The position numbers and the translations under genes are program-made. A DNA stretch of 64,000 nt from Mustelus asterias (lineage: Eukaryota), in the NCBI RefSeq assembly GCF_964213995.1, contig NC_135826.1, positions 36,704,001-36,768,000 on the forward strand, read 5' to 3'. Of this stretch, positions 22,601-64,000 are shown one piece after another; position 1 is the first letter of the stretch; every line of letters starts with the position of its first letter. The notes beneath the pieces are model-generated. The model ran no database searches. It was given only the letters and a program-made list of their open reading frames with translations, and was not told the origin of the DNA.

Positions 22601-25600
22601 TCAACAGCATTTTGTTGGAGTGAAATCAAAGTAAAGGACATAAAATGGTTACCGGCACACAAAATGGACTCTGGGAAAGGACATTAAGAGGCACTGACTT
22701 TGGGCACAGACATTACACAAAGAGTTAAAACCTGTAGCGTTTAAATTACTGCAGGAAACAGGTCAGACCTTGAGGCACCTTAAACTTGAGATAAAAGCAG
22801 ACCCAGAACAATGAGTTTGATAACGAGATCAGCCACTGATGGGGACATAAATGCATAAATGTATATAACAAGATCAGCCATTGATAGAGGACATAACTGC
22901 ATAAATGTATCTACTCTATGTACAATGATGTGATAACTGTCAATATCCGTACTTGTCTATGTATAACGATATGTTAACTGTCGATGTCCCTATCTGTCTA
23001 CTCAACCTGTAACGATGTGCTAACGGCTAATGTCCGTACAGTCTATTATCTAAAAAGTATAAAAGATGCTCAACTACCATTGTGTAGTTGAGAAGGTGAC
23101 TGCCTGTACTGCGGAGTGCCAGCGCTTCTCCCAAAGCTTTGCCCGAATAAAACTGTTTGTTGAACCTCCAAGTCTGACTCTGAAGTGGTGAATTTCCCAC
23201 AACAGTTTAAATAGGAGCAGAATGTTTAGGAGGAAAAGGAAAGGAGTATACAGAGAAGAAGAAGCAATCATCTGCAGCATGTTTCAAAGAAAATGAGAAG
23301 ATGGTAGGATGATAGTGATGAAATTTGTTTAGACATGGGAGGAAACCTCATCTTAAAACATTAAGAGAAATGAGGGAGGCAATGATTGTGTGAAAAACTG
23401 AATCAGTAGATGGAGCGATAACTCAAGTGAAAAGCCAATGGTAAGGCTATTGGAAAAGAACACGATTATCAGTCCAAAGTGCACTGTCGGCAACGGATAC
23501 AATATGCGAAAAAAGGAAGCACATAGAAATCCTAAAATAAACAACCAGGTAATGTTGTTGTAACGTAAGTAATGTTACTTACTTGTCTTCATTTCTGAAT
23601 ACCGCCCACACACAACTGACAGAGACACAAAACATGCCCAGAACCAACATCCGTACTTGGGGACGTTTGTGACTACATGGTAGGTCTGGAATCCTGAATA
23701 GTAGAATAGAGAAGACAGGTTATCAGGTAATGGGCAAGGGGATAATTCTAAATTCAGGGTTGTTGTAAATTGATATTAAAAACTGAATTTAAAAAGAACA
23801 TATTTTAAGTTACCTGCATTCACAGAAAGGAATCCTCCCTACAAACGGGGACAAGCAGCTGTAAAGTCCAATGGAGGAGGCAAGGCAGAAAATGCCTATG
23901 ATTACGTACACTGGTTTTGAAACAAGGAAGAAACATAGAAAAGCTGCTTATCTCATGTGGCTTTTTAATATTTGAAAGTGTCACAGTAATTACTAAATCT
24001 GTCCCCTCAAGTGTTGCACTTGGAACCAAGCAGCCAATTTCAACCAAAAAAATTCCATGTCATCTGTTTTAGAGAATTTTCTTTTTGAATGGTGGTGTTA
24101 ATGAATGAGTGGAACCTGTGAATTTCTTGCAATGTTTAACACAGTTACACTCACCAGGCCAAAAAACATGTTCCACCACAGGAATAGATATATCGGGGCA
24201 CAGTGGTTAGCACTGCTGCCTCACAGCTCCAGCAACCTGGGTTCGATTCCCGGCTTGGGTCACTGTCTGTGTGGAGTTTGCACATTCTTCTCGTGTCTGC
24301 GTGGGTTTCCTCCGGGTGCTCCGGTTTCCTCCCACAGTCCAAAGATGTGTGGGTTAGGTTAATTGGCCTTGCTAAATTGCCCCTTAGTGTCCCGGGATGC
24401 GTAGATTAGAGGGATTAGCGGGTAAATATGTAGGGATATGGGGATAGGGCCTGGGTGGGATCGTGGTCGGTGCAGACTTGATGGGCCGAATGGCCTCTTT
24501 CTGCACTGTAGGGTTTCTATGATTGTTAGAATATTTCAACCATCAACCAACAGTAAGAACATAACCTACTGTGCAAAGTGTAACTTCTGGCACCAAACTT
24601 GCAGGCGTTTAGCCCACTCCCAGGTACTTGGAAATTCAGGAACCCATTACATACCTAGCTGATGATAGAAGTAGTAAAGGAGCACCAGCATTGAGCAACA
24701 CATAACCACAAAAATACAGATCATAATTGGTGTAACATCGACAGTTTCATCATCCTGTTTGTCTGCCCCGTCATGCTTGTGTTTCATGTAGCGCCTTAAA
24801 CAGGAACAGAAAACATTAAAATTGTCATCATATTTCACGAAGAGTGAAAAAGTAACTACCTAGATGCATATTTGATACAATTTTTAAAAATTGATTCATG
24901 GGATGTGAGCATTTGCTGTCCGAGCTCTTAATGATTATGAGGAGGTGGCGATGAGCCATGGCAGTCCATGTGGTGCAAATACACCCACAGTGCTGTCAGG
25001 GAGGGGGTTCCAGGATTTTGACCCAGTGACAGTGAAGGAGAATCAGGATGGTGTGTGAATTGGAAGGGAACCTACAGGTGGTGGTGTTCCCATGTCTCCA
25101 GCGTAGTGCAGTTGCTCGGAGAAAGGCGCACAAGTAAGACTGGTGACTAGAACATGCTTTGACAATTTTGCTTGTGATGTATTCTCAGTACGTATTGGTC
25201 CTGTTGGACAGAGAATCATAAAGGAATTTTGGCTTGCTCCAGAGGTTTCTCCGAAGAATGAGAGATTCAGAGGAGCGTTTGTTTCCATTATAGTTGGGTG
25301 GAGTCAGATGGTATGAATATGACCTCTGCAGCCAATGGTAAAGTAATTTCAGTATACGCAATGGCACTAACCATCCAACTTCAAAGTAATTGATCGCAGA
25401 GGATTGCAACACTAAATAGCTGAGGGAAAATAGAATCGCAATTGTGCAAATAACATTCCAAAGTGTTTTTGTTTTGCAAACGCTCTCTGGCAGGTTCAAC
25501 CCAGATAACAGGGGGAGGGAGTATCCACAGTTATCAATCAAATAGCTCCCTACACACTAACTGCTCATTTCCACACTGCTGGAATCACCTACTTTTTCAC

Positions 25601-28988: not shown

Positions 28989-29188
28989 NNNNNNNNNNNN
29001 NNNNNNNNNNNNNNNNNNNNNNNNNNNNNNNNNNNNNNNNNNNNNNNNNNNNNNNNNNNNNNNNNNNNNNNNNNNNNNNNNNNNNNNNNNNNNNNNNNNN
29101 NNNNNNNNNNNNNNNNNNNNNNNNNNNNNNNNNNNNNNNNNNNNNNNNNNNNNNNNNNNNNNNNNNNNNNNNNNNNNNNNNNNNNNNN
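28989..29188. other. Assembly gap (200 N)
   Basis: Run of N between G/C-run-rich sequence and a CpG island. Confidence 1.
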
Positions 29189-29650
29189 CCACACCGCGGC
29201 CGGACGACTCCAATTGGCGCGAATGGGGGGGCCGATATTGGCGCAGTCTGGCAGCGGTGAACCGGCTGTTAAATTTGTAAATATTTTTCTGTAAAGGAGG
29301 CGGAAAGGCGGCCGCTGCCGGAATGGAGACCGCGGCAAACCGGGCCGGGGGGGGATTCCTGGCTGCCGGAACTCAGGCTGCGGGTCGAGGTTAAAGGTCA
29401 TGGGGTTTGGAGGTCAGAGGTTGCGGGCGCAGTGATGGCGGTGAGTGTGGAGAGGGACTGAAGTTGCGGGCCCGGGAACCCGCGGCCCGGCTTCAGACCT
29501 CGGCCTAGAGCTGGAAAACCCCGGGAATTGTGACTGTAAACCCGGAGCAGCCGGGGAGAGGCCCCGGCCGAACCCCGCCCGGGCTCCAGGCTGAACCCAG
29601 CCCCGCGTTCCCTCACTGCACTTGACTTTTTGGATCTTTCCAGACTCGGA
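29189..29650. promoter_or_regulatory. CpG island / probable bidirectional promoter of LSM7 and SPPL2B
   Basis: High GC and CpG content, CCAAT/ATTGG motifs (about 29210-29245), CCGGAA ETS-like sites; contains the LSM7 start exon. Confidence 0.75.
29435..29440 (+). CDS. LSM7: LSM7 exon 1 coding part (MA)
   Basis: ATGGCG followed by donor gtgagt inside the CpG island. Confidence 0.85.
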
Positions 29651-32600
29651 TTCTGTCCCGAAACCCCAGCCCCGCACCGGGCTCTGCCCCGAAACCCCAG
29701 CCCCGCGCCCGGGCTCTGCCCCGAAACCCCAGCCCCGCACCCGGGCTGTGCCCCGAAACCCCAGCCCCGCGCCCGGGCTCTGCCCCGAAACCCCAGCCCC
29801 GCGCCCGGGCTCTGCCCCGAAACCCCAGCCCCGCGCCCGGGCTCTGCCCCGAAACCCCAGCCCCGCGCCCGGGCTCTGCCCCGAAACCCCAGCCCCCCGC
29901 CCGGGCTCTGCCCCGAAACCCCAGCCCCGCGCCCGGGCTCTGTGTATTTATTCCTTGTTTCAGTTTCATTGGCTTCTAACTGTTTGAGTCAGGTCAGCGG
30001 CCTGATCTAGTTGCACATTCCAAAACTTGGGGATGGGATGGGATGGGATGGGGGGGGGGGGGGCGGTATTCTAATCGGAGGCTCTGGCACCTGTTTCGGA
30101 GAGGATCCAGATTCTGACATTTCCTTTTGTATTTTTAAATTCAGGACAAGGAGAAGAAAAAGAAGGAGAGCATTCTCGACCTCTCCAAGTACATAGACAA
30201 AACAATCCGTGTGAAGTTTCAAGGCGGACGAGAAGGTACAGTTTGGTGATCTCGCCTTTATAGATATAATTTTCAGGTATAATCTTGAAGCTTACAAGGG
30301 ACGACAGCAGCAACTGATAGTGTGATAGTTTGGGGAAGGAGTGGGGAGCTGTTTGGATAAGTATTGGGAATAAGTTCACAAATGTTTGAGGAAAGGAGTC
30401 AGTTTAGTTCCGTTGGCTAGTGACGCAGAGTGACGCCAACATCATGGGTTCAATTTCTGTACCCGGCTGAGGTTATTCATGAAGGCCCCGTCTTCTCAAC
30501 ATTGCCCCTCGCCTGAGATGTGATCTTCAGGTTAAATCACCACCAGTCACTGCCTGTGGTCATCTGAGACTATGGCGACTTTATTCCCATCCTTTTCCAA
30601 TTTTACCAGCCACCCTCCCTATGCCAACTCCATTGACCTCTATTTTTTTAGGACGGAGGTGAGGAGACATTTCTTCACCCAAAGGGAGGTGAGTCTCTGG
30701 AATTCATTACCACAGGAAGTTGTTGATGTCAAAACATTGAATGCATTCAGGAGGTGGCTGGATATAGCCCTTGGGGCGAATGGGATCAAAGGTTATGGGG
30801 AAAAAGCAGGATTAGGTATTGAGTTGGATGATCAGCCATGATCATAATGAATGACGGAGCAGGCTCGAAGAGCCTGGTGAAGTCAAGTGATACTTTTTCT
30901 ACCTTGTTCGTTTTAGAAGTAACTTGTTTAAATAATTTTTTTTTAACCTTCAACTGCACAGAATAACTATCATGATGTTTTAGATTGGTAATGAAAGTCT
31001 GGGTTTAGAAAATGCAAAATGGACTAAAATAGAAACTTCAACAATTAATTACCTTTTCAACTGGAATAAAACAAGCTGTAAAGTGATGCAGATACAACTC
31101 TCCATAGTGAAGTACAGGGTGGCACAGTGGTTAGCACTGCTGCCCCACAGCGCCAGGGACCGGGTTCAATTCCAGCCTTGGGTCACTGTCTGTTTGGAGT
31201 CTGCACATTCTCCCCGTGTCTGCATGGTTTTTCTCCGGGTGCTCTGGTTTCTTCCCACAGTCCAAAGATGTGCGGGTTAGGTTGATTGGCTATGCTAAAT
31301 TGACCCTAGTGTCAGGGGATTAGTAAGGTAAATATATGGGGTTGTGGGAGTAGGGCCTGGGTGGGATTGTGATCGGTGCAGACTCGATGGGCCAAATGGT
31401 CTTCTCCTGCACTGTAGGGGTTCTATGATTATGTAGCACTGTTCTGTTAGAGGTTAAAATCACCTTACCTGGAAATTGAAGCCTTGCTGTTTCAGTACTG
31501 GCCTTCATTGATTGTTACTGAAGTTAACACTGCCAGGGTGGCAGGAGGAAAGGACAATAGTGATGAGTAGTGTGCTGTATGTTTGGTTGAATTGTATAAT
31601 ATCTGTTGGAGTTCATTTGAAGTTTGTTTAACTTGCTTTCTTTTCACTTGACAGCAAGTGGGATATTAAAAGGATTTGACCCACTCCTCAATCTTGTATT
31701 GGATGGAACAATAGAGTATGTGAGAGGTAACCACAACAATGTTTCTGGTTTTTATCATTCATTTTGTGGAAAGTCTTCAACATAAAATCACTAAAAGTGA
31801 GATTGATTTTGCTCCTGTGTTTCTGTAAAGCGGTATCCACTTCCTGAATAATAACATTGATCCTAGCCAAACTCTGAAGTGGGGTCCTGAGACCCTTTTG
31901 GGGTATGCCATCTCATCACTTAAGCTTGGCATTTCTGATGAGTTTCAACTTTATTAGCCAGGAGTAGTCTGTCTGTGGCAATAGGATAAGAATTGGGGAA
32001 AGCTCAACTGGCTGGAGTTATGCCTACCACAGAGGAAGGTAGCTGTTGGAAGCCATTCTTAGTCTCGGAACATCACTGCAGGAGTTCCTCGGGTGCAGTG
32101 TCCTAGGTCTGACCATCTCCCATTGCAATCATCAGTAAACATCCCTACATCTGATGTTATGAAGCAAAGTGTCTATTCCTTGGGAATGTTACCACCAAGT
32201 TCCCTTTAACGTCCCACACCATCCTGGCTGGAAATGTATCGCCATTACTTCATTGTTACTGGGTCAAAATCTTGGAACTTCCTCCTTAACAGCATTGTGG
32301 ATGTATCTCCCAACATGTACTGCAGTGGTTCAAGAAGGCTACTCGCCATCAACTTCTCTAGAACAGTTCAGGATGGGCCGTAACTGCTGACTTTGCTACT
32401 GATGCTCACATCCCATGAATGAATTTTTAAAGAACCGTGCAAAGTGCATTGCTATCCAAGAGTCAAATTTGAAACCTGGTGCCATACAGATACTCGTCTG
32501 CAGTAAGGAATCATAGCCTGGATACTGCCATATGAAAACATCCCATCTGAAATGGATTTGCTTTGTGTCCATCATCTTCCATAGATGGAAGGCTGCTGGA

Positions 32601-33803
32601 ACTGGCATTAATGCATCAGGCAGTGCCCTTCCTGGCAGAGCAGAGAGGACTTCACTGCCAATTTCTCAGTCAAATCTTTACTCTGATTTGTCTGTCAAGA
32701 GCACCAGGCAATGTTTGTATTGTGGTGGGTGGGTTGGAACCAGCGTGTCCATCCAGTTGAGTGGAAATTTCCTCCAATTATATATCGAAAAAACCAAGCC
32801 TTTTGTTTTTGGTCCCCACTCCAAACTGTTTTCTAGCCACCTGTTCCATCCCTCTCCCAGCAACTGGCTGAGACTGAACTAGACTGTTTGCACCTTTATT
32901 ATATTTGACCCCGAGGTGAGCTTCCAATCACACATTTGTGCCATCACTAAGACCTCCTCTTTCGAACTCGAGCATCTCAACTGTGTCCTTGTCTCAGCTC
33001 ATCAGCAGCTGAAACCCTCATCCATGTCAATTCTAGAGGTTACAAAGACTATTGCAGCATTCTCGGCTGGCCTCCCCAATTATATTGTCCATAAACTTGA
33101 AGTAATCTAAAGTTCTACTACTCATGTCTTTACTCGTAACAAGTCCATTCACCCATCATCCTTGTGCTTGCTGACCAAATTTGGCTTTGCTTGATGTCTC
33201 AATTCTAAAATTCTCACTGTCACTTTCCAATCCCTCCATGGCCGCGACTCTCCCTATCTCTGTTATTCCTTTCGCCCGTAATCCTCAGAGATTTGGCCAC
33301 TTGAGCAGCCATGATTTTTACTGTACCACCATTGGTGACCAGACCATGCCTGCAGCTGCCAAAGCACCGCAAGGCCCTCTCTGAACATCTCTGCTTTCCT
33401 ACCTTTCACTTCTTCCTTTAAGACCAACTTCTTTGGTCATCTGTTCAAATATTTCCTTAAGTGATTTTCTGTCAGTTTTTCCTGTGCAGCACCTTGGGAT
33501 ATCATTTTATTATGTTAAAGGTTCCAAATCAATAGTTTGTTCCTCTTCTTCAAGTGAATATAATTAAATTTCCCATAATCAATTTAGTATGTTCCACATA
33601 GTGTTTTGTATTATGGAGCTAATAATTATTTTGTGCAAACTTGACATTGATACATTTCAGATCCAGACGACCAATACAAATTAACTGAAGACACACGGCA
33701 GCTTGGCTTGGTTGTATGCAGAGGGACCTCGGTTGTTCTCATTTGCCCACAGGATGGGATGGAGGCCATTCCAAACCCTTTCATCCAACAGCAAGATGGA
33801 TAA
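29435..33803 (+). CDS. LSM7: U6 snRNA-associated Sm-like protein LSm7, complete, 103 aa; join 29435-29440, 30145-30235, 31655-31726, 33661-33803
   Basis: Spliced translation MADKEKKKKESILDLSKYIDKTIRVKFQGGREASGILKGFDPLLNLVLDGTIEYVRDPDDQYKLTEDTRQLGLVVCRGTSVVLICPQDGMEAIPNPFIQQQDG*, near-identical to vertebrate LSM7; all introns GT-AG. Confidence 0.97.
29657..29941. repeat. GC-rich minisatellite, 32-bp unit CCCCGAAACCCCAGCCCCGCGCCCGGGCTCTG, about 9 copies, LSM7 intron 1
   Basis: Read directly; explains the repetitive ORFs at 29613-30010. Confidence 0.95.
30145..30235 (+). CDS. LSM7: LSM7 exon 2 (DKEKKKKESILDLSKYIDKTIRVKFQGGRE)
   Basis: Acceptor ttcag, donor gtacag. Confidence 0.97.
30394..30590 (+). 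mobile_element. Another tRNA-derived SINE (related copy about 6060-6250)
   Basis: GCCAACA.CATGGGTTCAATT.C...GGCTGAGGT shared between both sites. Confidence 0.55.
30648..30870 (+). mobile_element. CR1 LINE 3' fragment in LSM7 intron 2
   Basis: FRTEVRRHFFTQREVSLWNSLPQEVV. Confidence 0.8.
31116..31430 (+). mobile_element. HE1-type V-SINE
   Basis: Full head, V-domain and tail. Confidence 0.88.
31655..31726 (+). CDS. LSM7: LSM7 exon 3 (ASGILKGFDPLLNLVLDGTIEYVR)
   Basis: Sm1 motif GxLxGFDxxxNLVL; acceptor gacag, donor gtaacc. Confidence 0.97.
32600..33520 (+). mobile_element. L2 LINE 3' fragment in LSM7 intron 3 (related pieces about 43760-44050, 47820-48190, 58480-58740, 62110-62470, 63290-63560)
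   Basis: L2-type ORF2 remnants (AETLIH, AGLP..IVHKL; [12 protein letters not shown] at about 48150). Confidence 0.65.
33661..33803 (+). CDS. LSM7: LSM7 exon 4 coding part (DPDDQYKLTEDTRQLGLVVCRGTSVVLICPQDGMEAIPNPFIQQQDG*)
   Basis: Sm2 motif VVCRG; acceptor tttcag; TAA at 33801-33803. Confidence 0.97.
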
Positions 33804-40072: not shown

Positions 40073-42189
40073 TCCATGATGTTAACTCCATGGCTGCTAG
40101 GTCATTCTGCCCAAGAGAAGACTTCACTCTTCTGGGGTGATCACTCACTCTCAGTTCCCATTAGTGACCCACTTCTGCTGTATTGTTTTAAAGAGACAGA
40201 CATCACATACACAACAGGGTGAAAGTTGACATTATGTTTCTGGATGATGCCACTGAAGGACAGCATTGTAAATAAATAAGAGGGGTCCAAGGATAGGCCC
40301 TTTCAGGCCTCCAGAGAAAAGAGTAAAGGAGATTCTCTGGCTAAGACTGAATAGATAAGAGCGGTATCAAGACAAGGGCATTCCCACTCAGCAGGACAAT
40401 GGAGGAAGATGGTGGGCGCAACTATGGTCACAGTCAAATAGAAGCATTAAGTCATCTTCGTGATCAGGAGGGAAAATCCTGGTTGATTTTTTTCCACTTC
40501 CTACCCTGGGTAAACTATGGCCAATTCTAATGGTCAGCTGTGATCAATTACTTGCATAGATCAGAAATGGGAAATGACTTCCTTGTCTGTAGCAACTGAG
40601 TGAACAAACTCACTGAAACATCAGGGAATACAAAGGCCACTTTTTCTTGGTTTGTAATAGAGAGAATAAATTCCTTTTTATATGTTAAGTTGCCAGCCAT
40701 TGCGTAGCAAGATAATTACTATAACCACAACAAGCAGGAAATGAGACATGGATTTAACTTGACAAGCAATGACAAAGTCACTGTTGTACTGGGCCAAGAA
40801 AGATAGTAATAAAAAATATACCAGACTGGGTACATTCTTGAGGGAAAACTTAAATCACTCGCTCAAATAATGCTTTTATTTCAAGTTCACATTGCGGAAT
40901 AAGAAAGGAGGCACGGTGGTACAAAAAACCCCAAATATTCAAGGAATAAATAGGTTCTATCCTATGAGATTGCTTAATACATGAAGTTTATGCAGATTTA
41001 AAAAAACTTGCAAATTCATATAATGTAAGTTACAAAACAAATTGCTGATCAAATCTTTTCCATGACCAATAAGGTCATGACTGACCCAGTGATAAGGAAT
41101 GCCATTGTAGTGTGCCACAGTATACAAAACACTAACCTAATTGATAAATTAGATAATGTGGATAGCACCTGAATATTAATTATATACTAATAAATTGCTC
41201 GTGTCATTAAATGTGGTCAGTTAATGAGACTCTGTTGCCAATGAAGTTGGTAGACTTGAGATGGTGGACAGAACCATTAAGTGGTCACAGCCTTTGACTG
41301 CATTGTGACAGCTGACATAGGAAAATTGAACGGGTAAAGTTAATATAGCAATTTACAATGGTTAAGTGTTGACACCAAAGCATGATCATAAATTGTGAAA
41401 CGAGCTAAGATTTATATGCGAGTCTTAAGCAAGACTACTGGTATTAATGACTGGAAATAAGCAAAGGTAGCTGCAGAGGGGCTGGAAAAAAACCGTGATG
41501 AAGTAATTTTAAAGATATGTTTTTGAACAGGAAAATAAAATTAATAAATGCAATAAATAATTTTTTTTTAAAAAAAGAGACATTTTCAGGCCTGCTTGGG
41601 CCATACCTGGCATCACTTTTGTCTCTGACCTGGGAAAGACTCTCAGTGCATGGGGTGATGGTGGCAAGAGGTGTACAGGCTAAAAAGGACCCGAGTTTGA
41701 CGGCTGGGTTGTGCTGAGTTTGTTTTCAGCCAAGCTAGCCTCCAGGAGTGCGGGAGGAGAAAATCAGTCAGATCTTTAGTTAGCTGCAAAGGGCAATGTG
41801 TGTTACTGTCAAGCGTAGAATGAGACTTAACTGCAATGCCCTCCATGGTTTAACACCTTGCCAAGACTCAGTGTAGACTCATGGAGGACAGACACGACGG
41901 TAATTAGTGCCTGATGAATTGTACCTTAGCAAAAGCCAGCACCTTCAGTAGTGAAGCTGAGAAGAGAGTACCACTGCTATTTAAGCAGATGGTGATATTT
42001 ATTAATGGGTTACCCAAGTTTTTAAAATCCGTTAGCATATTAGAAGTGACTTTTATTAATGGATTTTCCCCAGAGTTCTGTAACACAGCACCATGGTAAT
42101 AGTGACTTGAGTCAATAATCAGTAGCACAGTAACAGCGATACTTACTAATGGATTTACCTGAGTTATGTTATTCATTAGCCAGGTAACA

Positions 42190-42291
42190 CTACGCTGCTG
42201 TCGTATCGATAAGTTGCATCGTTCGAATACTAATTGGCACTGTGTCACTGTAGCCGCCCTTAGATTGCATTTGGCCATGGACGTCAATCGT
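42190..42291 (-). CDS. CDC42SE2: CDC42SE2-like coding exon 3 (…QMQSKGGY…MQLIDTTAA*)
   Basis: Conserved QMQSKGGY and MQLxDT; pyrimidine-rich acceptor ttacag; TAG at 42190-42192. Confidence 0.9.
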   Translation of the reverse strand, partial: TIDVHGQMQSKGGYSDTVPISIRTMQLIDTTAA

Positions 42292-45200
42292 CTGTAACAG
42301 GAAGGAGAGTATTAGTATGTCTTTTTATAAACTACCAATGCTCCAAATAACAGACCTTTTCACTATCTCCCTCGGGGCTAGCATCATAAGTTGTCATTTC
42401 TATAGCAAGTCTATCAGTTGATCTCTCATTTAGTAGCACTTTCTACTGTAAATGACAGGGCAGAGATCGAGGTACCAGGTTCAGTCCACGCTTGTATGTA
42501 CTGAGTTAATTGAGTGCCTGCAGACTGGGCATGAAAAAAATCAGTCTTGCATGATCGGCCTCCCCAGACCCTTGATGAAAGGTATGGGTGTCAGGTCGTG
42601 CATGGGATCTTCTGAGCTGAATAGACAATACTCAATGCTCAGAATTCATACATGAAGACCAGCCACTTGGGTAGTACTGGAAGTGCAACCCAACATGAAT
42701 CAATGCCTTAGGGATTAGGTGCATTGGCCGTGCTAAATTCTCCCTCAGTGTACCCAAACAGGCACCGGAGTGTGGCGACTAGGGGATTTCCACAGTAACT
42801 TCATTGCAGTGTTAATGTAAGCCTACTTGTGACACGAATAAAATAAAATAAACTTAAAAAAGAGAGGAGGGGAGGAAAATAGGACAGAAATCCCGTTTTA
42901 ACTTGACAATTTAATTATAAATCTGGTGGTTTGCATTACCATCACTAGGTGGAGCCATTGCAACATTTTAGGACATATTTAGTTCTCCCTGTACGAGCAC
43001 ACTGGCTACATTCTTCTGGCCTGAAAACCGAGAAGGGCTGTACTGTATCAAAACCTTTCATCTGCTCTGCTGGCACATGATCTGTAGGTGAGAGCAAGAC
43101 TTCAAAGCTCCACCTCCATCCTTTCTAGATCCAGTGAGGGATGTGATTGTTGCCCTTCCTGCACAAACTCAGTTGCTCGGACTCCAACCCCTTACCAATC
43201 ACCCCCTTCCTTTGCCCCACCATTGACAGCCAAGGTCTTCAGCTGGCTTGTACCCCAAATTCTAGAATTCATAGCTCTGTCACTCTGGCTTTCTTTTTTT
43301 AAGGACTTTCCTTAAAACCCATCTCTTTGACCAAGCTTTAAGTCACCTTTACTCACGTCTCCTCTTTAGCTCGACAGCTAATCTATCTTCATTCCTTTAT
43401 GAAGCTATTTTGGGATGTTTCGCTGCATTAAAAGTGCAAACTGATGTTCATGGTATTTGCTCTAGATCATATATATTGTAATACGTGCTCATGACAGAAA
43501 GTATAAAAATGTTTGTTGACGGAACTATAAATTAATAAAAGAGGGAGAGAAAGGTTCAGGCAGATATAATCATAATTTAAAGATCATGAAAAAACAGAGA
43601 TGAGAGTAAAGATCAGGGTCTTTATCTTAACAGAGATAAAAATAAGAATCAGGGAATAGAAAAAGTTTTGTGAAGTAACAATAAAATGTCTGACAAAAAT
43701 AAAACAGGGGTAATAAAAATAGTGGAGTGATAGATTAACCGTGTACCACACAGAGTATCGGTAACAAACAGGAGAACTGAAGTTAATAATTAATAGTGGA
43801 GAAGTATAAATAATAAGGATAACAGAATTAAATGTGTGCAGATATCTTGGAGTCTTGTGGAGTTGGAGGAAGTTACAGAGATAGCAGGGGTGAGGCCTTG
43901 GGAGAAATTTGAAAACAAGGATGAGAATATTAAAATCAAGGCATTGCTTGACTGGGAGCCAATGGAGGTCAACGAGTACAGGAATGATAGGTGAACAGGA
44001 CTTGGTGCAAGTTAAGACAGAGGGCAGCAGAAACCTCCAGTTTACGGAAGGTACATAGGGAACAGGAGCAGGAGTAGGCTATTCGGCCCCTCATGTCTGC
44101 TCTACCATTCAGTGAGATCATGGCTGATCTTCTACCTCAACGCCGTTTCCCCGCACCATCCCCATATCCCTTGATGTCATTACTCGATAAATCTAAAACT
44201 GTACACAATATTACAGGTGTTATCTCACTGAGGCCCCATACAATTGTAGCAAGATATCTTTACTCTTGAACTCAAACGCTCTCGCAATAAAGGTCAACAT
44301 ACCATTTTAATCCGCACTTGCTTGCTGCAACTGCATGTTAGCTTTCAGTGACTCATGAACAAGAACACCCAGGTCCCTTTACATAGCAACACTTCCCATC
44401 TCTCACCATTTAAGAAATATTCTTAATTTCTGTTTGTGTTACCAAAGTGGATAACTCCATATTTTTGCACATGATATTCCAGCACATGGTCCCTAGCCTT
44501 GTATGCTATTCTATCTACCAAGTTCTTGCCCACTCCCTAAGCTTGTTGAAATCACCTTGAATCCTCCTCAAAACTCACATTCCCACCTAGTTTTGTGTCA
44601 TTAGCAAACTTGGAAATTTTACATTTGGTCCCCACGTCCAAATCGCTGACGTAGATTGTGAATAGCTGGGGTCTCAAGCCCCACTGGTCACAGCCTGCCA
44701 AGCTGAGAAAGACCTGTTTATCCCTACTCTCCTGTTTTCTGTCCATTAATCAATTCTCAACCCATGCCATTATATTACTCCAATCCCATGCTTTCTTGTT
44801 TCTTTTCCTAAATCTTTCTTTGTTTTTTTTTCCTAAACATTTGTGTGGGACCTTATCAAAAATCTTTGGAAAATCCAAATCATATCCACTGGATCCTCTT
44901 ATAAGTTCTGCCAGTCACATCCTCTTAAAAACACCAACAGGATTTATAAATTTCCCTTTTATAAATCCTTGTTGACTCTGCCCAACCCTAACATTATATT
45001 TGAATGTCCAGTTCTATCACTGATGCCAGGCTAACAGTTCTGTAGTTCTTCATTACATTTGGTATTCTTGCGAATGTTCTGATGAATGCAAGACAAAAAG
45101 CTTTGACGTGTCTTTTTCAGCAATATTCAAGGTGTGTAGTTCCCTGTTTCCTCTCTCCCTCCTTTCTTAAATAGTGTTACATTTGCTAACTTCCAATCTA

Positions 45201-48200
45201 CAGGAACCATTCCAGAATCTATAAAATTTTGAAAAATGTCCACCAATGCATTCACTATCTCGACAACTACCTCTTTCAACAGACTGAGATGCCAATCATC
45301 AGGTTCAGGGAATTTATCAACTTTTAGTCCCATTAATTTCTCCGGTACTCTTTTTTACTAATACTCATTTCTTTCAGTTCCTCATTCTCACTACTCACTT
45401 GATTCTCTTCGTATCTCTAGGAACTTTTTTGTATCTCTCTCCGTGAAGATAGTGTGAGGGTGGATGTTTTGTTTTTATTTTTTGGGGAATATTATGTTAT
45501 TTTGTAAAGCAGGGTGTGTGTCTGTGTGTACACCCACGTGTGTGTGTGTGAATGATTTGGGGGGTGGCACAGTGGTTAGCACTGCTGCCTCACTGTGCCA
45601 GGTACCTGGGTTCGATTCCCGGCTTGGGTCACTGTCTGTGTGGAGTTTGCATGTTCTCCCCGTGTCTGCGTGGGTTTCCTCCGGGTGCTCTGGTTTCCTC
45701 CCACAGTCAAAGATGTGCGGGTTAGGTGGATTGTCCGTGCTAAATTGACCCTTAGTGTCAGGGGGGTCTAGCTAGGGTAAATGCATGGGGTTATAGGGAT
45801 AGGGGCTGGGTGGTGGGATTGTGGTCAGTGCAGACTCAATGGGCCAAATGGCCTCCTACTGCCCTGTAGGACTCTATGATTTAACTAAGCTGGGGAAAGA
45901 TTAATAGCGACAACTTGTCTGGGAGAGTTGAAAGATAAAAGGAGTGAAGGTGCTAACTGCATATATTTGTAATAAGAGGGCATAGTAAAATAGATTTAAA
46001 GTAAATAGGTTAGACCTAGAAATCTGCTTAGGAGATACACTGGGCCTTGGTTTTTCAGCTGTTAAATTTCAAAGGAGAATAAGGAACTTTTACAACTTAC
46101 AAAGGTTTCATAAGTAAACAAATGAGTTATTACATTTTATCTGACCAGAAAGGAGAGTTAGTAGGAAAACATCCAAGTTTTTATATCTTGGAAGAGTTCA
46201 AAGAAGTGCTGAGGACAATGGAATCGAAAATGAAAGGGAAAAATGGATATTTATGGGGAGATGCTGAGCTGAGTTTTTGTTGGCTGTATGGGAAAAATAT
46301 CCTGGTGACAGCTCTGTACTGAGAGAAGGTGAGAAATCTGAAGCAGCTATCCAGAAACATCTTAGTTTTCAGAAGGCAGTGTCATTTCAGAATTCTCTTG
46401 GAGTTCCACAACAATGGAAGGATCTGAGAAGTCATGTGGCATGCCTTTAGTAAAGTGACAGATGTTTTGCCTTCAGTAATATTACTGGATTTTTAAAGTT
46501 AAAAATTTATAAGTGGTTGTTTACAAGAAGGTGTTTACTTGCGTGTTCTGAGCAAGTAGTTTATGGGAGGCTTTGTAAAACTGTTTTAACTGTGGAATTT
46601 TAATATTGTGTGTTTGTTCCTTTTCTTTTTGTCAATAGAAATAGAATTAAAAAGAAGATTTAAGTGTTACTAGAGTTCTGTGCTTCTGGGGTCAGTGGGT
46701 TTCTGCTCATTTTCAGAATACAAAAACCAGGTTATGACCAGTAAGACAAGTTTCCCTCTGGGACTTGGCATGCTCAGCAAATAACATCTACTGTGGTCAT
46801 AACAACAGACACAAAGTATTTATTTAGTTTTTCTGCCATCTCCTTATTACCCATTACAGTGCGTTTTATGTTTCTCACTAGTTTATTCTCATATTCTATT
46901 TCTCTGAAAATCAGCTTCTGGGTTTTCTTTTGCGGAATTCCAAAAAACTCCCATCCTCAGGTGTATTACTTTTATTGGCAACTTTAGCCTCTTCCTTTAT
47001 ATCTAATATAATCTTTAGCTTCTCCTGTTAGCCATGGTTGGATCACCTTCCTTTCTGGGTTCATACCTCAAAGAAATGTACTTTTTTTGTTAGCCACGTA
47101 TTAATTCTAGAAAGGCTAGATGTTTCCTGTCTACCATCATACCTTTTCATTTAGTTTCCCAATCTACCACAGCCAACATGCTGCTCATACCTTCAAAGTT
47201 TCCTTTGTTTAGATTTAACCTAGTCTCGGGTTGAACTACATAGCTTTCAAACATAATGTAAAATTCAACATATTACAGCTACTCTTCCCTCCAGGCTCCT
47301 GTTACTCCAACTGCAGAGCAAACAAATGAGTTCCCTAAACTCAGTCTTCTCGTAGCACCTCCATTAAACTGATGCCTTTACTGAATCCTGTCATTGATTC
47401 TTCAGTTAACTATTGTCCCACTAGCCATGTAGTTTTCTTCTCAGAGAGCTGAAAATCCCTGTTTTCTCTCTGGCCCACATACCCTCTGTCTCAACTCCTG
47501 TCTTCCATGTGTCTGTGTTACTGGATCACTGTCGCCAGGCAACAGTAAAGCTTTGCTGCTTTTTTCCAGAATCACTGAACTTGCAGCCCCTTTTAATGTA
47601 CCCCTTTAACTTCATGGTTGTAAGACCCCATTAAAAGTGTGTATATAAATATATACACACAAAGAAACCCAAAAGACCTGAAATCTTTCAGTTACAGGTC
47701 TATCCAGACACCCAGGCACCAAGGTTTATAAACAAAATCTAAATGAAACTAAACCATTTTTACCTTTCTTAGCACACAAGCATAAATTAAACTTGAAATT
47801 ATACATTGTTCATAACTTCATACCATAACAGATGCGGGATAAGCAGTCAGATAATTTGGCTACAGTCAAACAAAGTGGTGACGATGCACAGCTCAATGTC
47901 ATCAGCATGCATGTGGAAACTAAATCTGAGCTTTGCAATAATGTTGCTGAGGGGCCATAGATGAGAAATAGGAAGAGGCCAAAGAAAGATTCTTGGGGGA
48001 TACCAAAGATGATGGATCAGGAAGAGAAGCCACTGCAAGCGATATTTCTGATTGATATGAATAGAACCTGGCAAGAGCAGTTGCACCTAGCTGAACAACA
48101 GTAGAGAGGTTTTGAAGGAGAATGGTATGGTCTACCATGTCAAAGACTGCAGGCACCTCAAGAAGGAATAAACTGGGGAAGAAATCAACCATGAGAGAAT

Positions 48201-51200
48201 AAGGATAGAGATTAGGAGGGAAAAGGATAAGAAAGAAGAACAGTAAGTAATATTTAAGAAAGAGATCAATAAAATTTAGGTGAAATATATTCCACTATAA
48301 AATAAGGGATATCATGGATAAATAAAAAAGGGAGGATAAAATGGAAGCTAAAGAGCAAGGTATATAAATAACAATGGTGAGGATGACAAAAGGGTTTAGG
48401 AAAGAGGTTTTAAAAAATTAGAAAATCAAAGAGGAAAAATTAAATTGAAATGGTAAAGAGTAGAAAGAGAACTATTCTATAGGCACATAAGTAACAAAAG
48501 GAGAATTAAAATAAGGATATAACAACTAAAGGTTGAGCAAAGTAAACTCACAGGAGATTATAATGAAATAGCAGAGATAACGAGCAGTTACAGAGCCTCA
48601 GCTTTTACTGACGAGGAAATTACAATGATAAAAAGAATCAAGATAGATATTAAAGCAGTTAAGATGGGAAGAAAGAAAGATGATAATAGACAAACTAACC
48701 AAACCTAAGGAGGACAAGTCCTTGGTCCAGATAGATTGTACCCATGATAGTCAATGAAATTAGGGAGGAGACAACAGAATCACTATAGCTTCTATAAAAG
48801 TTCAGTAGAATTCAAAGAAAGAGTGCCAGAGCACTGGTGAACAGCAAATGTAACTCATATCTTCAAAAGGGAAATAAAACTAACCCGGGAACAACATACA
48901 AGTCAGCCTAATACTACTGATGTTTTCTCATATCGTTAGACAGAGAATATAATGATCGATCATGTTTCACAAACCTTACTGAAACCTTTGCAGAAACAGC
49001 AGACAAAGACAATGCTGTGGATGTGGTTTACATGGACTTTCAAAAGGCCTTCAAAAGGTGTCACATGAGAGATTCATTACAAAGATCATGGCATGCGGAG
49101 TCAAGCACCCGGTGGCAAAATGAATTGAAAGATAATTAGAAAACAGGAGAGTCAGAGTCAAGGGAAGCTTTTCAAACTAGCAGAAAGTGAGACGTGCTGT
49201 CCAGCAGGCGTCATGCCGGGACCACTGCCGTCACCATAGTCTAACACAAATCATTTATACTCAGAAATTGATGTATGATGTCAAAATATGTGGACTGTAT
49301 GTAATTGGGGTAATAAAGCTGATAATGTCATCAGTTGCACCAAATAGAGAAGGCATAAACAGGCTTGCAAAGTGGGCGGATAAAACAGGAACTAAATTCA
49401 ACGGAATAAGTGTGAATTGGTTCATTTTGTTAGTAAGAACAGGAAGGCCATTTAGTCCTTAGAAGTTAAAAAACTAAGTGGGGTAGAGGAGCAAAAAGAT
49501 CTGGGAATTGTATATGCACAAACAACTGAAAAGTAACAAAACAGGTCAGGAAGAGTACAAAGAACTGGAGTTCATTTCTCGAGGAATAGAATACGAAAGC
49601 AGGGAGCTAATGTTCAATTTATATAGAACCTTTGACATATCATGCTTAAGTGTTCTGATGTGCAGTCTCATCTCCTACTACAGAAAGGATATTTAAAAAC
49701 TGGAGATAGTAAGGAATTCCAAGAATGTTACCACAACTAAGAGGATGCAGCTGTCAGAGAAGATTATACGCAGTTTAGACTTTATTTTTCCTCTAAAAGA
49801 CATTAAGGAGAAACCTGATAGCTGTCTTTAAGGAAGGGGTACAAGATGGTGAATATAGAAAACCTGATTACACTCAGAAGTGAGTCAGGCTAAGTGGATC
49901 ATGGCTACTAACAACGCAAATATTGAATTTCAGAGGATTTTATTTACACAGTGATGAAACATGCACTAATGCATTTGAGTGAAATGGGATGGAGGGCTAT
50001 GGGTCCAGGGTAGGAAAAGAGTTAGAGCAGGAGGAGCACAGAGTATGAATGCCACTATACACCAAATGGGCCATTTATATCCTGGCTTAGTTGACAAAAA
50101 GTGACAAAAGTCTTTCATATCCGGAATCAAGCAGTTGAAGTATTCAGTGAGCAACACTGAGAATCAACAGCAGAACTCCGTTGTCCTGCAACACTACAGT
50201 GAACAGTAACATTAAAATAAAAGTGATCTTAGCGTCTGCAGTCTCCTCATACAATAAATTTCCAACCTCTCTGATGGCAGTGTGCTGACAATTAAGGCAG
50301 ACAGGCATGGAGCATCACTGTAGTCAACCTTATGTGGCTTGTTAAGGCCTTAAATGCCTTTTCACCCTCTCAGCCACGCTCCAGTTCCAAAGCAATTACA
50401 AAGCAAATGACAAGGCAGCAACCAAAAGATTTAATCCCTTTACAAAATAATTTTGTAGGCACTTACAGAGCTCATTCGATCCCCAAACATATCTCCAGCC
50501 CCCATGTGAGATGTGTGAACAAAATTTGTTGGCTCTCCAATCATACTTCTGTCTATTCGTCTCCGCCTTTTCTGTGAAAAGATTAAAGTAAAGTATATTT
50601 ATTTATTAGTCACAAGTAAGGCTTACATTAACACTGCAATGAAGTTACTGTGAAATTCCCCTAGTTGCCACACTCCGGTGCCTGTTCGGGTAAATGCATC
50701 TAACCAGTACGTCTTTCGGATTGTGGGAGGAAACCACGCAGACATGGGGAGAACGTGCAAACTCCAAACAGACAGTGACCCAAGCCGGGAATTGAACCCG
50801 GGTCCCTGGTGCTGTGAGGCAGCAGTGCTAACCACTGTACCACCGTGCCACGCAAAGAGGCACCAAGATCAGGAGTGAGATCCTGCATGACGATAACACA
50901 TGACTATGACAATTGTAAAGTGACAATATTGCACATGTTACCATGAATATACAACAGATATTCTCATAATGAAAGTTATACCCAATCTAAATATAAATAC
51001 TGAGCAATCAATGTAATCTCTGTCAAAAGTACTTTAGAGGAATTAAGCATTAGGAACATAGCATGTATTATAGATGGTTTTGTCCTCATTTCGCACACCA
51101 CCCCACTCAATAAAACACAAAAGCAATATCAGAGTTCCCAGAAATCCAAAACCAGACCATTCTAATCCCTGCTCCTTCTCTTTACTAAGTATATAACAAA

Positions 51201-51344
51201 CCACTGAAATCCAACAGTATGGCTCTTACTATAATAAAATCAGTAAACAGTTAAAATTATGAGATTTGTTCACTTAAAAAACATACTCACTGGCTGCGGT
51301 TGTTCTGCAATGCAGCAATTAAAACACAACCAGAATTCACTCAT
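42190..51344 (-). CDS. CDC42SE2: CDC42 small effector protein 2-like (SPEC family, CRIB motif), 86 aa; join 51291-51344, 50467-50571, 42190-42291
   Basis: Spliced translation [86 protein letters not shown]. The N-terminus matches CDC42SE2; [16 protein letters not shown]; phase-0 GT-AG introns. Family is certain; exact orthology is not. Confidence 0.9.
42712..42856 (+). mobile_element. 5'-truncated V-SINE, alternative tail
   Basis: Tail matches 195-300 in reverse complement. Confidence 0.78.
45453..46804. mobile_element. Solo LTR inserted in a CR1 LINE and itself interrupted by a SINE
   Basis: TGTGAG...CATAACA termini, flanks ATAG/ACAG; CR1 sequence resumes contiguously on both sides. Confidence 0.7.
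45563..45880 (+). mobile_element. HE1-type V-SINE nested in a solo LTR
   Basis: Full head, V-domain and tail. Confidence 0.88.
48400..50080 (+). mobile_element. Old degenerate CR1 LINE
   Basis: Remnants such as [11 protein letters not shown] and [12 protein letters not shown] with many stops. Confidence 0.7.
50467..50571 (-). CDS. CDC42SE2: CDC42SE2-like coding exon 2 (basic patch plus CRIB)
   Basis: [24 protein letters not shown]; acceptor ttcacag, donor gtaagt. Confidence 0.93.
50590..50852 (-). mobile_element. V-SINE with alternative 3' tail, just upstream of a CDC42SE2-like splice acceptor
   Basis: Same tail as 195-432 and 42712-42856. Confidence 0.82.
51291..51344 (-). CDS. CDC42SE2: CDC42SE2-like coding exon 1 ([18 protein letters not shown]); full exon with 5'UTR probably 51291-51580
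   Basis: ATG at 51344, donor gtgagt, acceptor ctgcag (AG at 51581-51582). Confidence 0.92.
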
Positions 51345-52089
51345 CGCTACAAACTATTTTGCCGTGTTTGATAAATCCAAAATCACTTTGGCTGTGTAGG
51401 CAGTCTCTAAAGAAACCTGGGCAAGCGATGCGAACGTAACAAGACACTCAGGTTCTGGTACTTGTGCTGTCAATCTAGAGTTCAGTAATCTGGCAATCAG
51501 TTATTAGTCTTCCTATTGAAGTGGTTTCCCCTCCCGATGCTGCATCAGCTTTGTGTATAGCCAGTGTTGCCGTAACCAAGCTGCAGAAACAAAACGAATA
51601 TTTGCATCAGAGAACTATTATCCTTTTTTTTTGCATTTATTTTGACCCAAGTAATGAAGCATCGTTGAGAGTCTCCAGTTACCAAGCAATGAACACAACG
51701 CAGTTTTCAATTAACTTTAAAAACAGAAAACATAATTCTCATGGTGGGTCACAGAGCTTCAAACCAAAGTTCAAGTCAACTGAGTATCCAAATTAAATAG
51801 TGCAGCAAATCCAAGCTTCAATCTTAGTAGCTAGCTGATGTGAGATGTGAGCCAGCATAGCTCAGTGGGGAATGGGGTGGTGCGGCATAATTGGCCTTGT
51901 TGCCTGCAAAACAAGGAAGATTAAAAATAATCTGATTCCTTATTACTAACAACTATCATTCTAGGATGCACGTGTGTGATGTTGGCTCAGTTCTTAAGTT
52001 CCCACTCCATAAGAATCGGTGACTAGGAACTCTGCTTACTAAGCAAGAGTCAGTGCCCATGGAGGCAAAACCTATGCATGAGATGGCAC

Positions 52090-55480: not shown

Positions 55481-56039
55481 CTTAGATACTCAACTAAAAC
55501 TCACAAGAATTCAAACACAGGGAGGTAAATAAGTGCTACCAAGTGTCGACGAAACGCATACCCTGTTAGAAGAAAATATCTTAAAATAAGTAAAACACTG
55601 CAAATGCTGGAATCTGAACCATATAAAATATCTTAAGTCGGAGGGAGAAAGGAGGGGAATGGAGATGATCTATTGGGAAACATCTTCATACACATTAGAT
55701 AAAAGCAAAATCCTGCAGATTCTGGAATCTAAAACATAGAAAATATCTTATGTTGGGGGAAAAAAAGGGGGAATGAATGCTAGATGATCTATTGGGAAAC
55801 ATCTTCATACACATGTATAAAAGACTAGAGTCTAAGGTAAACCTGTCAAACTTCAATTCAATAGAGACCTTATTTCTTGCTGGGTTCTTCTGATCTGCAG
55901 CCAGGAATTTATCACTGACCTCAGTTGGAAAACTATCCGGATTTCCTATTTAGCAGGTGTAGATGTAGAGACTGTAATTAAATATACATATACAAATACG
56001 CAGCGCAATGTAATTAAATACACACACAGCCCAGTGACA

Positions 56040-56470
56040 ATCCACTTGCCCTCTCAGCCCCAGCCCGGCTCCAGGAGAGACAGGCCCGGCTAACCGCCCC
56101 GCCTCCTCAACCTACCCTGCTCCCCCAGCACCCGCCCCGCCCCTAGCAACAACACGGCCAATGACAATCCCGCACGCCGGCACGCGCCTCCCCCTGATTG
56201 GCCGCCTCCTCCTGTCAATCACCGCCAACGGCCGCACGCCCACCATCAGGGTAGGTTGCGCCGCAGCCCGCGGAGTGGAAACTCGCTCCGCCGTTTAAGT
56301 CGGCAGGTCAGACCTGAGGTCCGCTCTGGGCCGCCCCTCCGGGCCGCTTGACCGCTCCTGTCCGGGCCGCTTGACCGCTCCTGTCCGGGCCGCTCAATTC
56401 CCTCCAAACCGCCTCTCCGCGCCCGGAAACAGCCGGCGCATGACGTCAGGGACTGCTGTCAAAGGTCACT
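56040..56470 (-). promoter_or_regulatory. CpG-island promoter, probably of the CDC42SE2-like gene
   Basis: GC boxes (56131-56142), CCAAT 56158-56162, ATTGG 56197-56201, CCGGAA about 56423, palindromic CRE TGACGTCA 56441-56448; only CpG island upstream of the gene in this window. Confidence 0.75.
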
Positions 56471-56717
56471 GGTTACTCCTCGCCAGCATCCTAAACTGCA
56501 CTCGGTCTCCAAGGGAAGACCCCAACATTGGCTTCAACTTGTACTCAAATCATCTTCCAAAAAACTCCCGACCGAAAATCCATACGTGCCGACTACATCT
56601 GCCTCACAACTCAAACACCTGACCTCAACACCTTGGACCAGACCCCAAACCAAAACTTGGGGAACAATACTGCAACGCATAGCGACTTAAGCCAACAGGT
56701 TTATTTGGTAGCAAAAG

Positions 56718-63275: not shown

Positions 63276-63599
63276 AATAGCATGTTTAAGGGTTCTAATG
63301 GCACATAGGGCTGAGATAGAGGTAAAGATGTGCAATGTTTTGGAGCTGAACATAAGTGATGGCAAGGAACTGGAGTTGGAAACTCCAGTTGGTATTGAAC
63401 AGGAGTCCAAGTTTGCGAACAGTCTAATTCAGCCTGACTGTGAAGGAGATGGAGTTGGTGGTGGGAACTGAAGCTGATGGCTGCAACATTCCCAGTGTTT
63501 CACCTGTGTTAATTATGGCTTGTCTAAGTCATGATATTGAATAAACAATCTAACAACACATCTTCACCTCCGGTACAAACCTATCCTGAATAACAAAAC

Positions 63600-64000
63600 A
63601 ACTGTTTAAAAAAGGAAGTAGACAAAAGGCAGGTAACTACAGGCCGGTTAGCTTAACGTCCGTAGTTGGGAAGATGCTAGAGTCCATTATTAAAGAGGAA
63701 ATAACAGAGCACCTGAATAAGAATGGTTCGATCAAGCAGACGCAGCATGGATTCATGAAGGGAAAGTCGTGTTTGACGAATCTACTGGACTTTTATGAAG
63801 ATGTCACTAGTGCGGTTGACAGAGGGGAACCGGTGGATGTGGTGTTTTTAGATTTCCAGAAGGCGTTCGATAAGGTGCCTCACAAAAGGTTGCTGCAGAA
63901 GATTGGGGTACACGGAGTTAGGGGTAAGGTGTTGGCGTGGATTGGGGATTGGCTATCTAACAGGAAGCAGAGAGTTGGGATAAATGGGGGCTTTTCTGTT
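63600..64000 (+). mobile_element. Young CR1 LINE RT region running off the window end
   Basis: Uninterrupted LFKKGSRQKAGNYRPVSLTSVVGKMLE...QHGFMKGKSCLTNLL...FLDFQKAFDKVPHKRL; CpGs retained. Confidence 0.93.

What the first reader, a model, noticed from the sequence alone, without database searches (positions are those of the whole stretch)
42190..51344. Hidden 86-aa CDC42 small-effector gene next to LSM7, possibly a separate CDC42SE paralog
Seen: three tiny coding exons, none present in the ORF track, splice to a complete SPEC/CDC42SE protein with the N-terminal Cys-Cys, KRRRR patch and CRIB motif. The first ~38 residues match human CDC42SE2 as recalled, then the sequence diverges ([23 protein letters not shown] versus HTAHVGSGDLFSGMNSVSSIQN). 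Known: human CDC42SE2 is on 5q and CDC42SE1 on 1q, while LSM7/SPPL2B are on 19p13.3, where I recall no CDC42SE gene next to them. Inference: this may be a genome-duplication paralog kept in cartilaginous fish and lost in mammals.
Basis: partly seen in the sequence, partly recalled or inferred. Interest (0 to 1): 0.7.

Follow-up and report, generated by a model that had tools for sequence, protein, structure and literature searches.

The report
Third CDC42 small-effector gene in sharks
This is a real, already annotated 86-amino-acid Cdc42-effector-family gene that sharks and rays carry in addition to CDC42SE1 and CDC42SE2; it is likely a leftover copy from the ancient vertebrate genome duplication that bony vertebrates appear to have lost, an ordinary kind of event.

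Summary
The three exons exist as described (minus strand, 51344-51291, 50571-50467, 42291-42190; GT-AG introns) and give an 86-aa CDC42SE protein. It is not hidden: it is identical (86/86) to a RefSeq 'CDC42SE2-like' record, with orthologues named in 19 shark and ray species. It is not a moved CDC42SE2: the genome has a separate SE2 (C6, after HINT1- and LYRM7-type exons) and an SE1-type gene (C1442). It lies tail-to-tail with LSM7 in a TIMM13-TMPRSS-SPPL2-LSM7 block, also in skate. C6 and C26 share CK1-gamma and MEF2 paralogues, and silent-site divergence matches MEF2 ohnologues. Best reading (0.72): the 2R sister copy of CDC42SE2, kept in elasmobranchs and lost in bony vertebrates (not only mammals). 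The protein tree alone cannot exclude a shark-lineage duplication. A separate 74-76-aa clade in bony fishes, amphibians and alligator (Xenopus SE2-B/C) groups with SE1, is numbered far from LSM7 in annotations and was not found in this genome; it is probably the fourth copy. Shark-retained ohnologues are a known class; function is inferred. Interest 0.3.

The parts
51291..51344 (-). Coding exon 1 (18 aa, ATG at 51344; Cys10-Cys11); donor GTGAGT
   Evidence: identical in amino acids to exon 1 of the C6 SE2
51345..51580 (-). Likely 5' UTR part of the same exon, behind a pyrimidine tract and AG at 51582-51581 (inferred; one upstream ATG)
   Evidence: not tested with reads
50572..51290 (-). Intron, 719 nt, GT-AG, phase 0
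50467..50571 (-). Coding exon 2 (35 aa): KRRRR patch and CRIB motif (Ile29, Pro32, Phe35, His37, His40, Met41, Gly42)
42292..50466 (-). Intron, 8175 nt, GT-AG, phase 0
42190..42291 (-). Coding exon 3 (33 aa + TAG), with the family's QMQSKGGY block and a long C-terminal tail
41998..42057 (-). Candidate poly(A) signals AATAAA at 42057 and 42003 (another at 40880); untested
56001..56500 (.). CpG-rich patch (GC 0.66, CpG o/e 0.88), candidate promoter or first non-coding exon; untested
30154..33800 (+). LSM7 coding exons 2-4 (neighbour, convergent; about 8.4 kb between the two stop codons)
10177..23941 (-). SPPL2-type (Peptidase_A22B) exons, head-to-head with LSM7; the name SPPL2B rests on neighbourhood and recall

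Best explanation
The window holds an intact three-exon gene for an 86-aa CDC42SE-family protein, separate from this genome's CDC42SE1 and CDC42SE2, that likely arose as the sister copy of CDC42SE2 in the jawed-vertebrate genome duplication (2R), was kept in sharks and rays and was likely lost in bony vertebrates. Shown: gene structure, three family loci in G000, a distinct elasmobranch clade, conserved position beside LSM7. Inferred origin: the SE2 chromosome (C6) and the LSM7 chromosome (C26) are the alpha/beta pair of one ancestral fused chromosome, and the beta copy changed faster after the CRIB. Inferred function (about 0.85, by family membership, untested): a small membrane-held adaptor; the Cys pair and basic patch would hold it at phosphoinositide-rich membrane, the CRIB would bind GTP-Cdc42 and so dampen or localise Cdc42 signalling to actin and JNK as SE1/SE2 do. 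The changed segment after the CRIB (residues 39-58) may tune affinity or tissue role.
For: Three CRIB-exon loci, 3 of 3 candidates scored: C26, C6, C1442; a bichir query adds no fourth, 8 of 8 candidates scored. C6 gene has the same three coding blocks, 84/86 identical to catshark SE2, and lies about 270 kb after HIT-family exons and LYRM7-like exons. Window protein is 60/85 identical to C6 SE2 and 60/85 to primate SE2, while C6 vs primate is 77/85. Clade of window gene 100/100 in 3 of 3 trees; joined with SE2 and cyclostome rows at 96/91*, unresolved. Neighbours on C26: TIMM13-, TMPRSS-, SPPL2-type, LSM7. LSM7 accession within 342 numbers in 7 of 7 elasmobranch species comparable, within 7 in 3; skate supplement puts Cdc42se2-2 at Leri_29C 3.84-3.85 Mb and Lsm7 at 3.81-3.82 Mb. 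LER29 = LOC19 = GGA28 (PMC10115646); GGA28 descends from CLGC, GGAZ from CLGC+CLGL, and the C-L fusion has an alpha-beta pair (PMC7269912). CK1-gamma hits on C6, C26, C70; MEF2 exons on C6, C24, C26, C1537. Silent divergence window vs C6: 18 of 39 synonymous-capable codons identical, 4 of 12 fourfold sites; MEF2 C6 vs C26: 16 of 37 and 3 of 11. C26 is 50.4 of 3680 Mb (1.4%), so a random landing there is unlikely. Introns at the same places rule out retrocopy. Met at the last CRIB position occurs in 20 of 349 family-like proteins fetched: 18 of this clade (17 named, all elasmobranch; 1 unnamed in the skate cluster), 2 unrelated unnamed. His37 matches SE1 His38, needed for Cdc42 binding (PMC6406378; alignment).
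Against: With 84-85 columns the tree cannot date the split: the best 52-row tree nests the clade inside a paraphyletic SE2, next to shark SE2 (82/0; enclosing forks 98/81* and 98/86* with lengths 0.011-0.022). AU tests reject none of the alternatives: with shark SE2 p=0.50, with the 74-76-aa clade p=0.13, with SE1 p=0.16. Silent-site counts are small and probably near saturation, so a 300-400 My old lineage duplication could look the same. No chimaera record of this clade was seen, so only a shark-ray age is shown. Loss in bony vertebrates rests on protein searches, not on scanning bony-vertebrate genomes at LSM7. No paralogous gene pair was found right next to both loci; paralogy is chromosome-wide. 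That GGAZ and GGA28 are the alpha-beta pair, and that C6 is the Z-type chromosome, is my inference plus recall (figure not held).
Confidence: 0.72

Rival explanations
1. A DNA-level duplicate of CDC42SE2 made within the cartilaginous-fish lineage, before sharks and rays split, which moved beside LSM7 and then diverged.
For: Exon 1 is identical in amino acids to SE2; the best 52-row tree nests it among SE2 rows; AU p=0.50 for grouping with shark SE2; seen only in elasmobranchs.
Against: It would have to land by chance on the chromosome paralogous to the SE2 chromosome (1.4% of the assembly); silent divergence equals that of MEF2 ohnologues on the same two chromosomes; SE2 monophyly is not rejected either (p=0.49 and 0.34); chondrichthyan chromosomes change slowly (PMC11406177 passages).
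Confidence: 0.13
2. It is the shark orthologue of the 74-76-aa bony-vertebrate gene (Xenopus CDC42SE2-B/C), so the third paralogue was not lost in bony vertebrates but moved and shortened.
For: G000 has three family genes and basal bony vertebrates also three; no 74-76-aa-type gene was found in G000; AU does not reject the grouping (p=0.134 and 0.133).
Against: The 74-76-aa clade joins SE1 against SE2+window clade+cyclostomes (96/91*; 94/95). Identity to the window protein is lower (48/74 bichir, 45/73 Xenopus) than SE2's 60/85. Its accession or locus number is more than 5,000 from LSM7 in 7 of 7 species comparable, 4 of them non-teleost. It has a short tail like SE1; the window protein has the long tail of SE2, cyclostomes and invertebrates.
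Confidence: 0.1
3. It is the true CDC42SE2 orthologue, translocated.
For: One source names a member plainly 'CDC42 small effector protein 2' (Stegostoma); N-terminal 38 residues equal SE2.
Against: A much closer SE2 lies on C6 after HINT1/LYRM7-type genes.
Confidence: 0.01

Closest known systems
CDC42SE2 (SPEC2)
   Same: Identical first 38 residues, same three coding exons and intron phases, long C-terminal tail; 60/85 identity.
   Different: Separate locus on a paralogous chromosome; CRIB end and following segment changed (Ser39, Met41, Ala43); faster evolving (stem 0.31-0.47 changes per column); seen only in sharks and rays.
CDC42SE1 (SPEC1)
   Same: Cys pair, basic patch, CRIB with the His needed for Cdc42 binding (PMC6406378).
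   Different: 41/84 identity to the shark SE1-type protein P0256; SE1 has its own locus (C1442) and clade (98-99% bootstrap).
Xenopus CDC42SE2-B/-C and the 74-76-aa bony-vertebrate clade
   Same: Also an extra CDC42SE paralogue filed under 'SE2-like' names and absent from mammals among the hits.
   Different: Short tail, groups with SE1, numbered far from LSM7, not found in G000.
Shark-retained 1R/2R ohnologues as a class
   Same: PMC13450315 reports 135 ohnologues in sharks that are single copy in all other gnathostomes; PMC10115646 Fig. 2d,e treats ohnologues kept in chondrichthyans.
   Different: CDC42SE is not named in the one supplement file of PMC13450315 that could be searched; the online database could not be seen and may list it.

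Membership tests
CDC42SE/SPEC family | Small protein, about 75-88 aa | tested here: met
   86 aa
CDC42SE/SPEC family | Two conserved N-terminal cysteines | tested here: met
   Cys10-Cys11; feature as described in PMC6406378
CDC42SE/SPEC family | Basic patch before the CRIB | tested here: met
   KRRRR at 19-23
CDC42SE/SPEC family | CRIB motif with both histidines | tested here: met
   His37/His40 present; PBD 22.4 bits on exon 2, 20.4 bits on the whole protein, under the 21.3 cut-off; Met replaces Val/Ile at the last position
CDC42SE/SPEC family | Binds GTP-loaded Cdc42 | not tested
   No assay; no complex prediction was sent
CDC42SE2 orthologues | Lies after HINT1-LYRM7 and is the genome's closest match to mammalian SE2 | tested here: not met
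   The C6 gene fills that place: 77/85 vs 60/85 to primate SE2; human gene order is recalled
2R ohnologue pair with CDC42SE2 | The two genes lie on paralogous chromosomes | tested here: met
   CK1-gamma and MEF2 paralogues on both C6 and C26; skate copy on LER29 = GGA28-type. Not informative: LTD search gave one hit only; OAZ hits on C26 and C70, none on C6
2R ohnologue pair with CDC42SE2 | Duplication node older than the shark-bony fish split | tested here: inconclusive
   AU tests reject neither topology; silent divergence like MEF2 ohnologues on few sites
2R ohnologue pair with CDC42SE2 | DNA-level copy (introns kept), not a retrocopy | tested here: met
   Same exon boundaries at C26 and C6
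2R ohnologue pair with CDC42SE2 | Absent at the LSM7 locus of bony vertebrates | not testable with these tools
   No bony-vertebrate genome is held; only protein searches

The most novel reading that the evidence does not exclude
Jawed vertebrates had four CDC42SE ohnologues with reciprocal loss: sharks and rays keep SE1, SE2 and this 'SE3' beside LSM7 and lack 'SE4'; bony vertebrates lost SE3 but keep the 74-76-aa SE4 (Xenopus SE2-B/C, coelacanth, gar, teleosts, alligator), which mammals lost. Many fish genes named cdc42se2 are then SE4, not orthologues of human CDC42SE2.
Probability: 0.55. Interest if true: 0.4.

Novelty: new member of a known kind. Interest (0 to 1): 0.3.

Why it matters
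It corrects orthology in a small Cdc42-effector family: at least three different genes share the label 'CDC42SE2(-like)' in databases, which matters for anyone using fish, frog or shark models. It adds one case of differential ohnologue loss between cartilaginous and bony vertebrates. It opens no new mechanism: the protein has the standard family anatomy and the class of event is described.

Tried and rejected
RNA confirmation of the junctions: no RNA holder on record was listed, and no reads were laid, so junctions stay unconfirmed by reads here. FNIP1 as marker for true SE2: FNIP_C hits only C16 and C1; rejected as a marker in this genome. Complex1_LYR search missed the C6 LYRM7-like exons (11 matches, none on C6); they were found only by short recalled motifs, so that name is less sure. 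Lamin tail search gave one hit, on C9: uninformative. No LINGO-type long ORF or motif in 190 kb right of the window and no lamin or OAZ motif in the 454 kb scanned. The weak C10 hit is a PAK-type CRIB exon, not a CDC42SE pseudogene. Exon 3 of the C1442 gene was not found on that repeat-rich contig. PDB sequence search: only weak matches, WASP CRIB E=0.32. The Kelch neighbour could not be named. No fold or complex prediction was run: a CRIB-Cdc42 pair would pass by likeness to solved structures. Paper searches found no study of a third vertebrate CDC42SE paralogue; one paper holds the string 'cdc42se3' once (PMC10244396, human glioma; listing only). Supplements without CDC42SE hits: PMC13450315 (1 file), PMC8302630 (5 files, file 4 not searched), PMC10199039 (6 files, file 5 not searched); PMC11979771 supplement not readable. 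Unseen files and ohnologs.com may already list this gene. Earlier findings of this scan: none.

Full report
Observation. The three coding exons are at the stated place on the minus strand: 51344-51291, 50571-50467 and 42291-42190, with GT-AG introns of 719 and 8175 nt, both phase 0, giving 86 aa. The Cys pair, KRRRR patch and CRIB motif are there; Pfam PBD passes its cut-off on exon 2 and falls just short on the whole protein. The spliced product is 86/86 identical to P0122, a RefSeq model named 'CDC42 small effector protein 2-like', so the gene is hidden only from an ORF track. P0126, a 59-aa unnamed protein of the skate cluster found on assembled contigs of at most 1300 bases, runs across the exon 2-3 junction, which suggests spliced transcripts in a relative. 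Junctions were not confirmed with reads here.

Three family genes in this genome. The CRIB exon finds 3 loci of 3 candidates: the window (C26), C6 (77%) and C1442 (70%). The C6 gene has the same three coding blocks (57,457,660; 57,495,385; 57,505,900), is 84/86 identical to catshark SE2, 80/85 to gar SE2 and 77/85 to a primate SE2, while the window protein is 60/85 identical to both C6 and primate SE2. HIT-family exons lie at C6:57.18 Mb and LYRM7-like exons at 57.196 and 57.204 Mb, the order I recall for human HINT1-LYRM7-CDC42SE2. FNIP hits are on C16 and C1. The C1442 gene is SE1-type by motif, and its near match P0256 sits in the SE1 clade.

Distribution. Records of the window's type carry names of 19 shark and ray species; identity to the window protein is 67-86 of 86 among the full-length 86-aa ones. 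Of 349 family-like proteins among the 522 fetched, 20 have Met at the last CRIB position; 18 belong to this clade (17 named, all elasmobranch) and 2 are unrelated unnamed proteins. No chimaera or bony-vertebrate member appeared, but these are protein searches with length limits and clustering, not genome scans.

Neighbourhood. On C26 the order is TIMM13-type, TMPRSS-type, SPPL2-type, LSM7, this gene (convergent with LSM7), then a BTB-BACK-Kelch gene; the match to human 19p13.3 order is recalled. As a proxy for synteny I compared accession numbers: the gene and LSM7 are 1, 3, 7, 132, 219, 282 and 342 numbers apart in 7 of 7 elasmobranch species for which both were listed (some species assignments rest on number blocks). 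The skate genome supplement (PMC10115646, file 2 rows) names LE21660 'Cdc42se2-2' and places it at Leri_29C 3.84-3.85 Mb, with Lsm7 at 3.81-3.82 Mb; this also shows that a distance of 132 numbers is compatible with adjacency. I did not see the LE21660 sequence; its identity with this clade is inferred from position.

Origin. CK1-gamma has hits on C6, C26 and C70; MEF2 exons lie on C6, C24, C26 and unplaced C1537; SPP-family hits include C26 and C24. So the SE2 chromosome and the window's chromosome are paralogous. LER29 corresponds to GGA28 and derives from a CLG fusion (PMC10115646 section 6); GGA28 descends from CLGC, GGAZ from CLGC and CLGL, and the C-L fusion has an alpha-beta pair (PMC7269912 passages and section 8). 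That Z and 28 are that pair, and C6 the Z-type chromosome, is inference and recall. Silent divergence between the window gene and C6 SE2 (18 of 39 codons identical, 4 of 12 fourfold sites) is like that of MEF2 on the same chromosomes (16 of 37, 3 of 11) and like the comparisons with SE1 (13 of 27, 12 of 29); the counts are small.

Trees. I chose 52 of the 349 family-like proteins, then subsets of 27 and 19; four unnamed SE1-type rows were edited to remove mispredicted extensions or inserts, and labels of unnamed rows are mine. The window clade is 100/100 in all three trees. It falls with SE2 and cyclostome rows (96/91*; unresolved). In the 52-row tree it nests inside SE2. AU tests reject nothing: SE2 monophyly p=0.49 and 0.34, window clade with shark SE2 p=0.50, with the 74-76-aa clade p=0.13 twice, with SE1 p=0.16. 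The tree therefore shows a distinct clade closest to SE2 but cannot date it; the 2R reading rests mainly on position.

A fourth lineage. A 74-76-aa clade occurs in coelacanth, bichir, sturgeon, gar, teleosts, frogs (Xenopus SE2-C), newts and alligator. It is not monophyletic in my trees but sides with SE1 (94/95, 96/91*; a basal grade). Its number is 5,282-13,386 away from LSM7 in 7 of 7 species compared (Erpetoichthys, Polypterus, Xenopus, Ascaphus, Alosa, Triplophysa, Poecilia); I left out gar (different annotation releases) and pairs whose species I could not assign or did not enter (Onychostoma, Cirrhinus, T. rosa, Carassius, two Poecilia), none of which was close. It was not found in G000. 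It is probably the fourth ohnologue; its map position was not tested.

How it likely works. By family, a membrane-held Cdc42 adaptor: PMC6406378 (passages) describes the two cysteines, the phosphoinositide-binding basic patch, the CRIB and following helical region needed for binding, and loss of binding in SE1 H38A; His37 is the matching residue here. All are kept, so Cdc42 binding is likely (about 0.85) but untested. Lipid modification of the cysteines is recalled, not read. The changes after the CRIB may alter affinity. In skate the copy is expressed in fin buds (baseMean 85) and differs between anterior and posterior pectoral fin (log2FC -5.2, padj 1.2e-5), but that table has more than 6,700 rows, Lsm7 and Cdc42se1 among them, and I did not establish the direction.

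Novelty. The gene model is in RefSeq and in the skate annotation. Ten paper searches found no description of it as a separate paralogue, but shark-retained ohnologues are a known class: 135 are reported in PMC13450315 (passages), whose database I could not see. The hagfish supplement lists one CDC42SE gene (PMC10972751). Verdict: real, a new member of a known kind, interest 0.3.

Noticed in passing
P0094, P0282-P0307, P0318, P0490-P0522: 74-76-aa CDC42SE clade of bony vertebrates (Xenopus SE2-B/C) that sides with SE1; many percomorph records of this type are named plain 'CDC42SE2'. Whether those fishes lack true SE2 was not tested.
   Followed up: partly
L019:4785-5810 (+), about 4.8 kb right of the window's end: BTB-BACK-Kelch gene (Pfam BACK, BTB, weak BTB_KLHL33); a further Kelch motif at C26:36,776,179. 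I recall no such gene beside human LSM7; it could be another gene kept in sharks.
   Followed up: partly
C26:36,768,001-36,958,000: No LINGO-type long ORF in 190 kb right of the window, where I recall LINGO3 beside human LSM7.
   Followed up: partly
G000 C6:57.18-57.51 Mb vs C16:29.59 Mb: CDC42SE2 is unlinked from FNIP-family hits, so the human SE2-RAPGEF6-FNIP1 adjacency (recalled) is not seen in this shark.
   Followed up: partly
L090 (C10:119,291,586-119,291,795 and about 1.5 kb upstream): PAK-type CRIB exon with a second, partial copy of the same motif nearby.
   Followed up: no
P0070, P0072, P0308, P0114 (birds): Diverged SE2-like bird proteins; possibly W-linked or duplicated copies (guess).
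   Followed up: no
P0157-P0162: Unnamed 500-1000-aa proteins with 4-7 repeated CRIB-like matches each.
   Followed up: no
window 28989-29188 and 28500-30000: 200-N gap inside the GC-rich stretch between the SPPL2-type gene and LSM7, with a tandem repeat near 29400-30000; likely the shared promoter region.
   Followed up: no
window 27075-28578, 48700-49900, 63590-64000: Decayed LINE-type reverse-transcriptase fragments and many SINE-like repeats (named from recall), one set inside intron 2.
   Followed up: no
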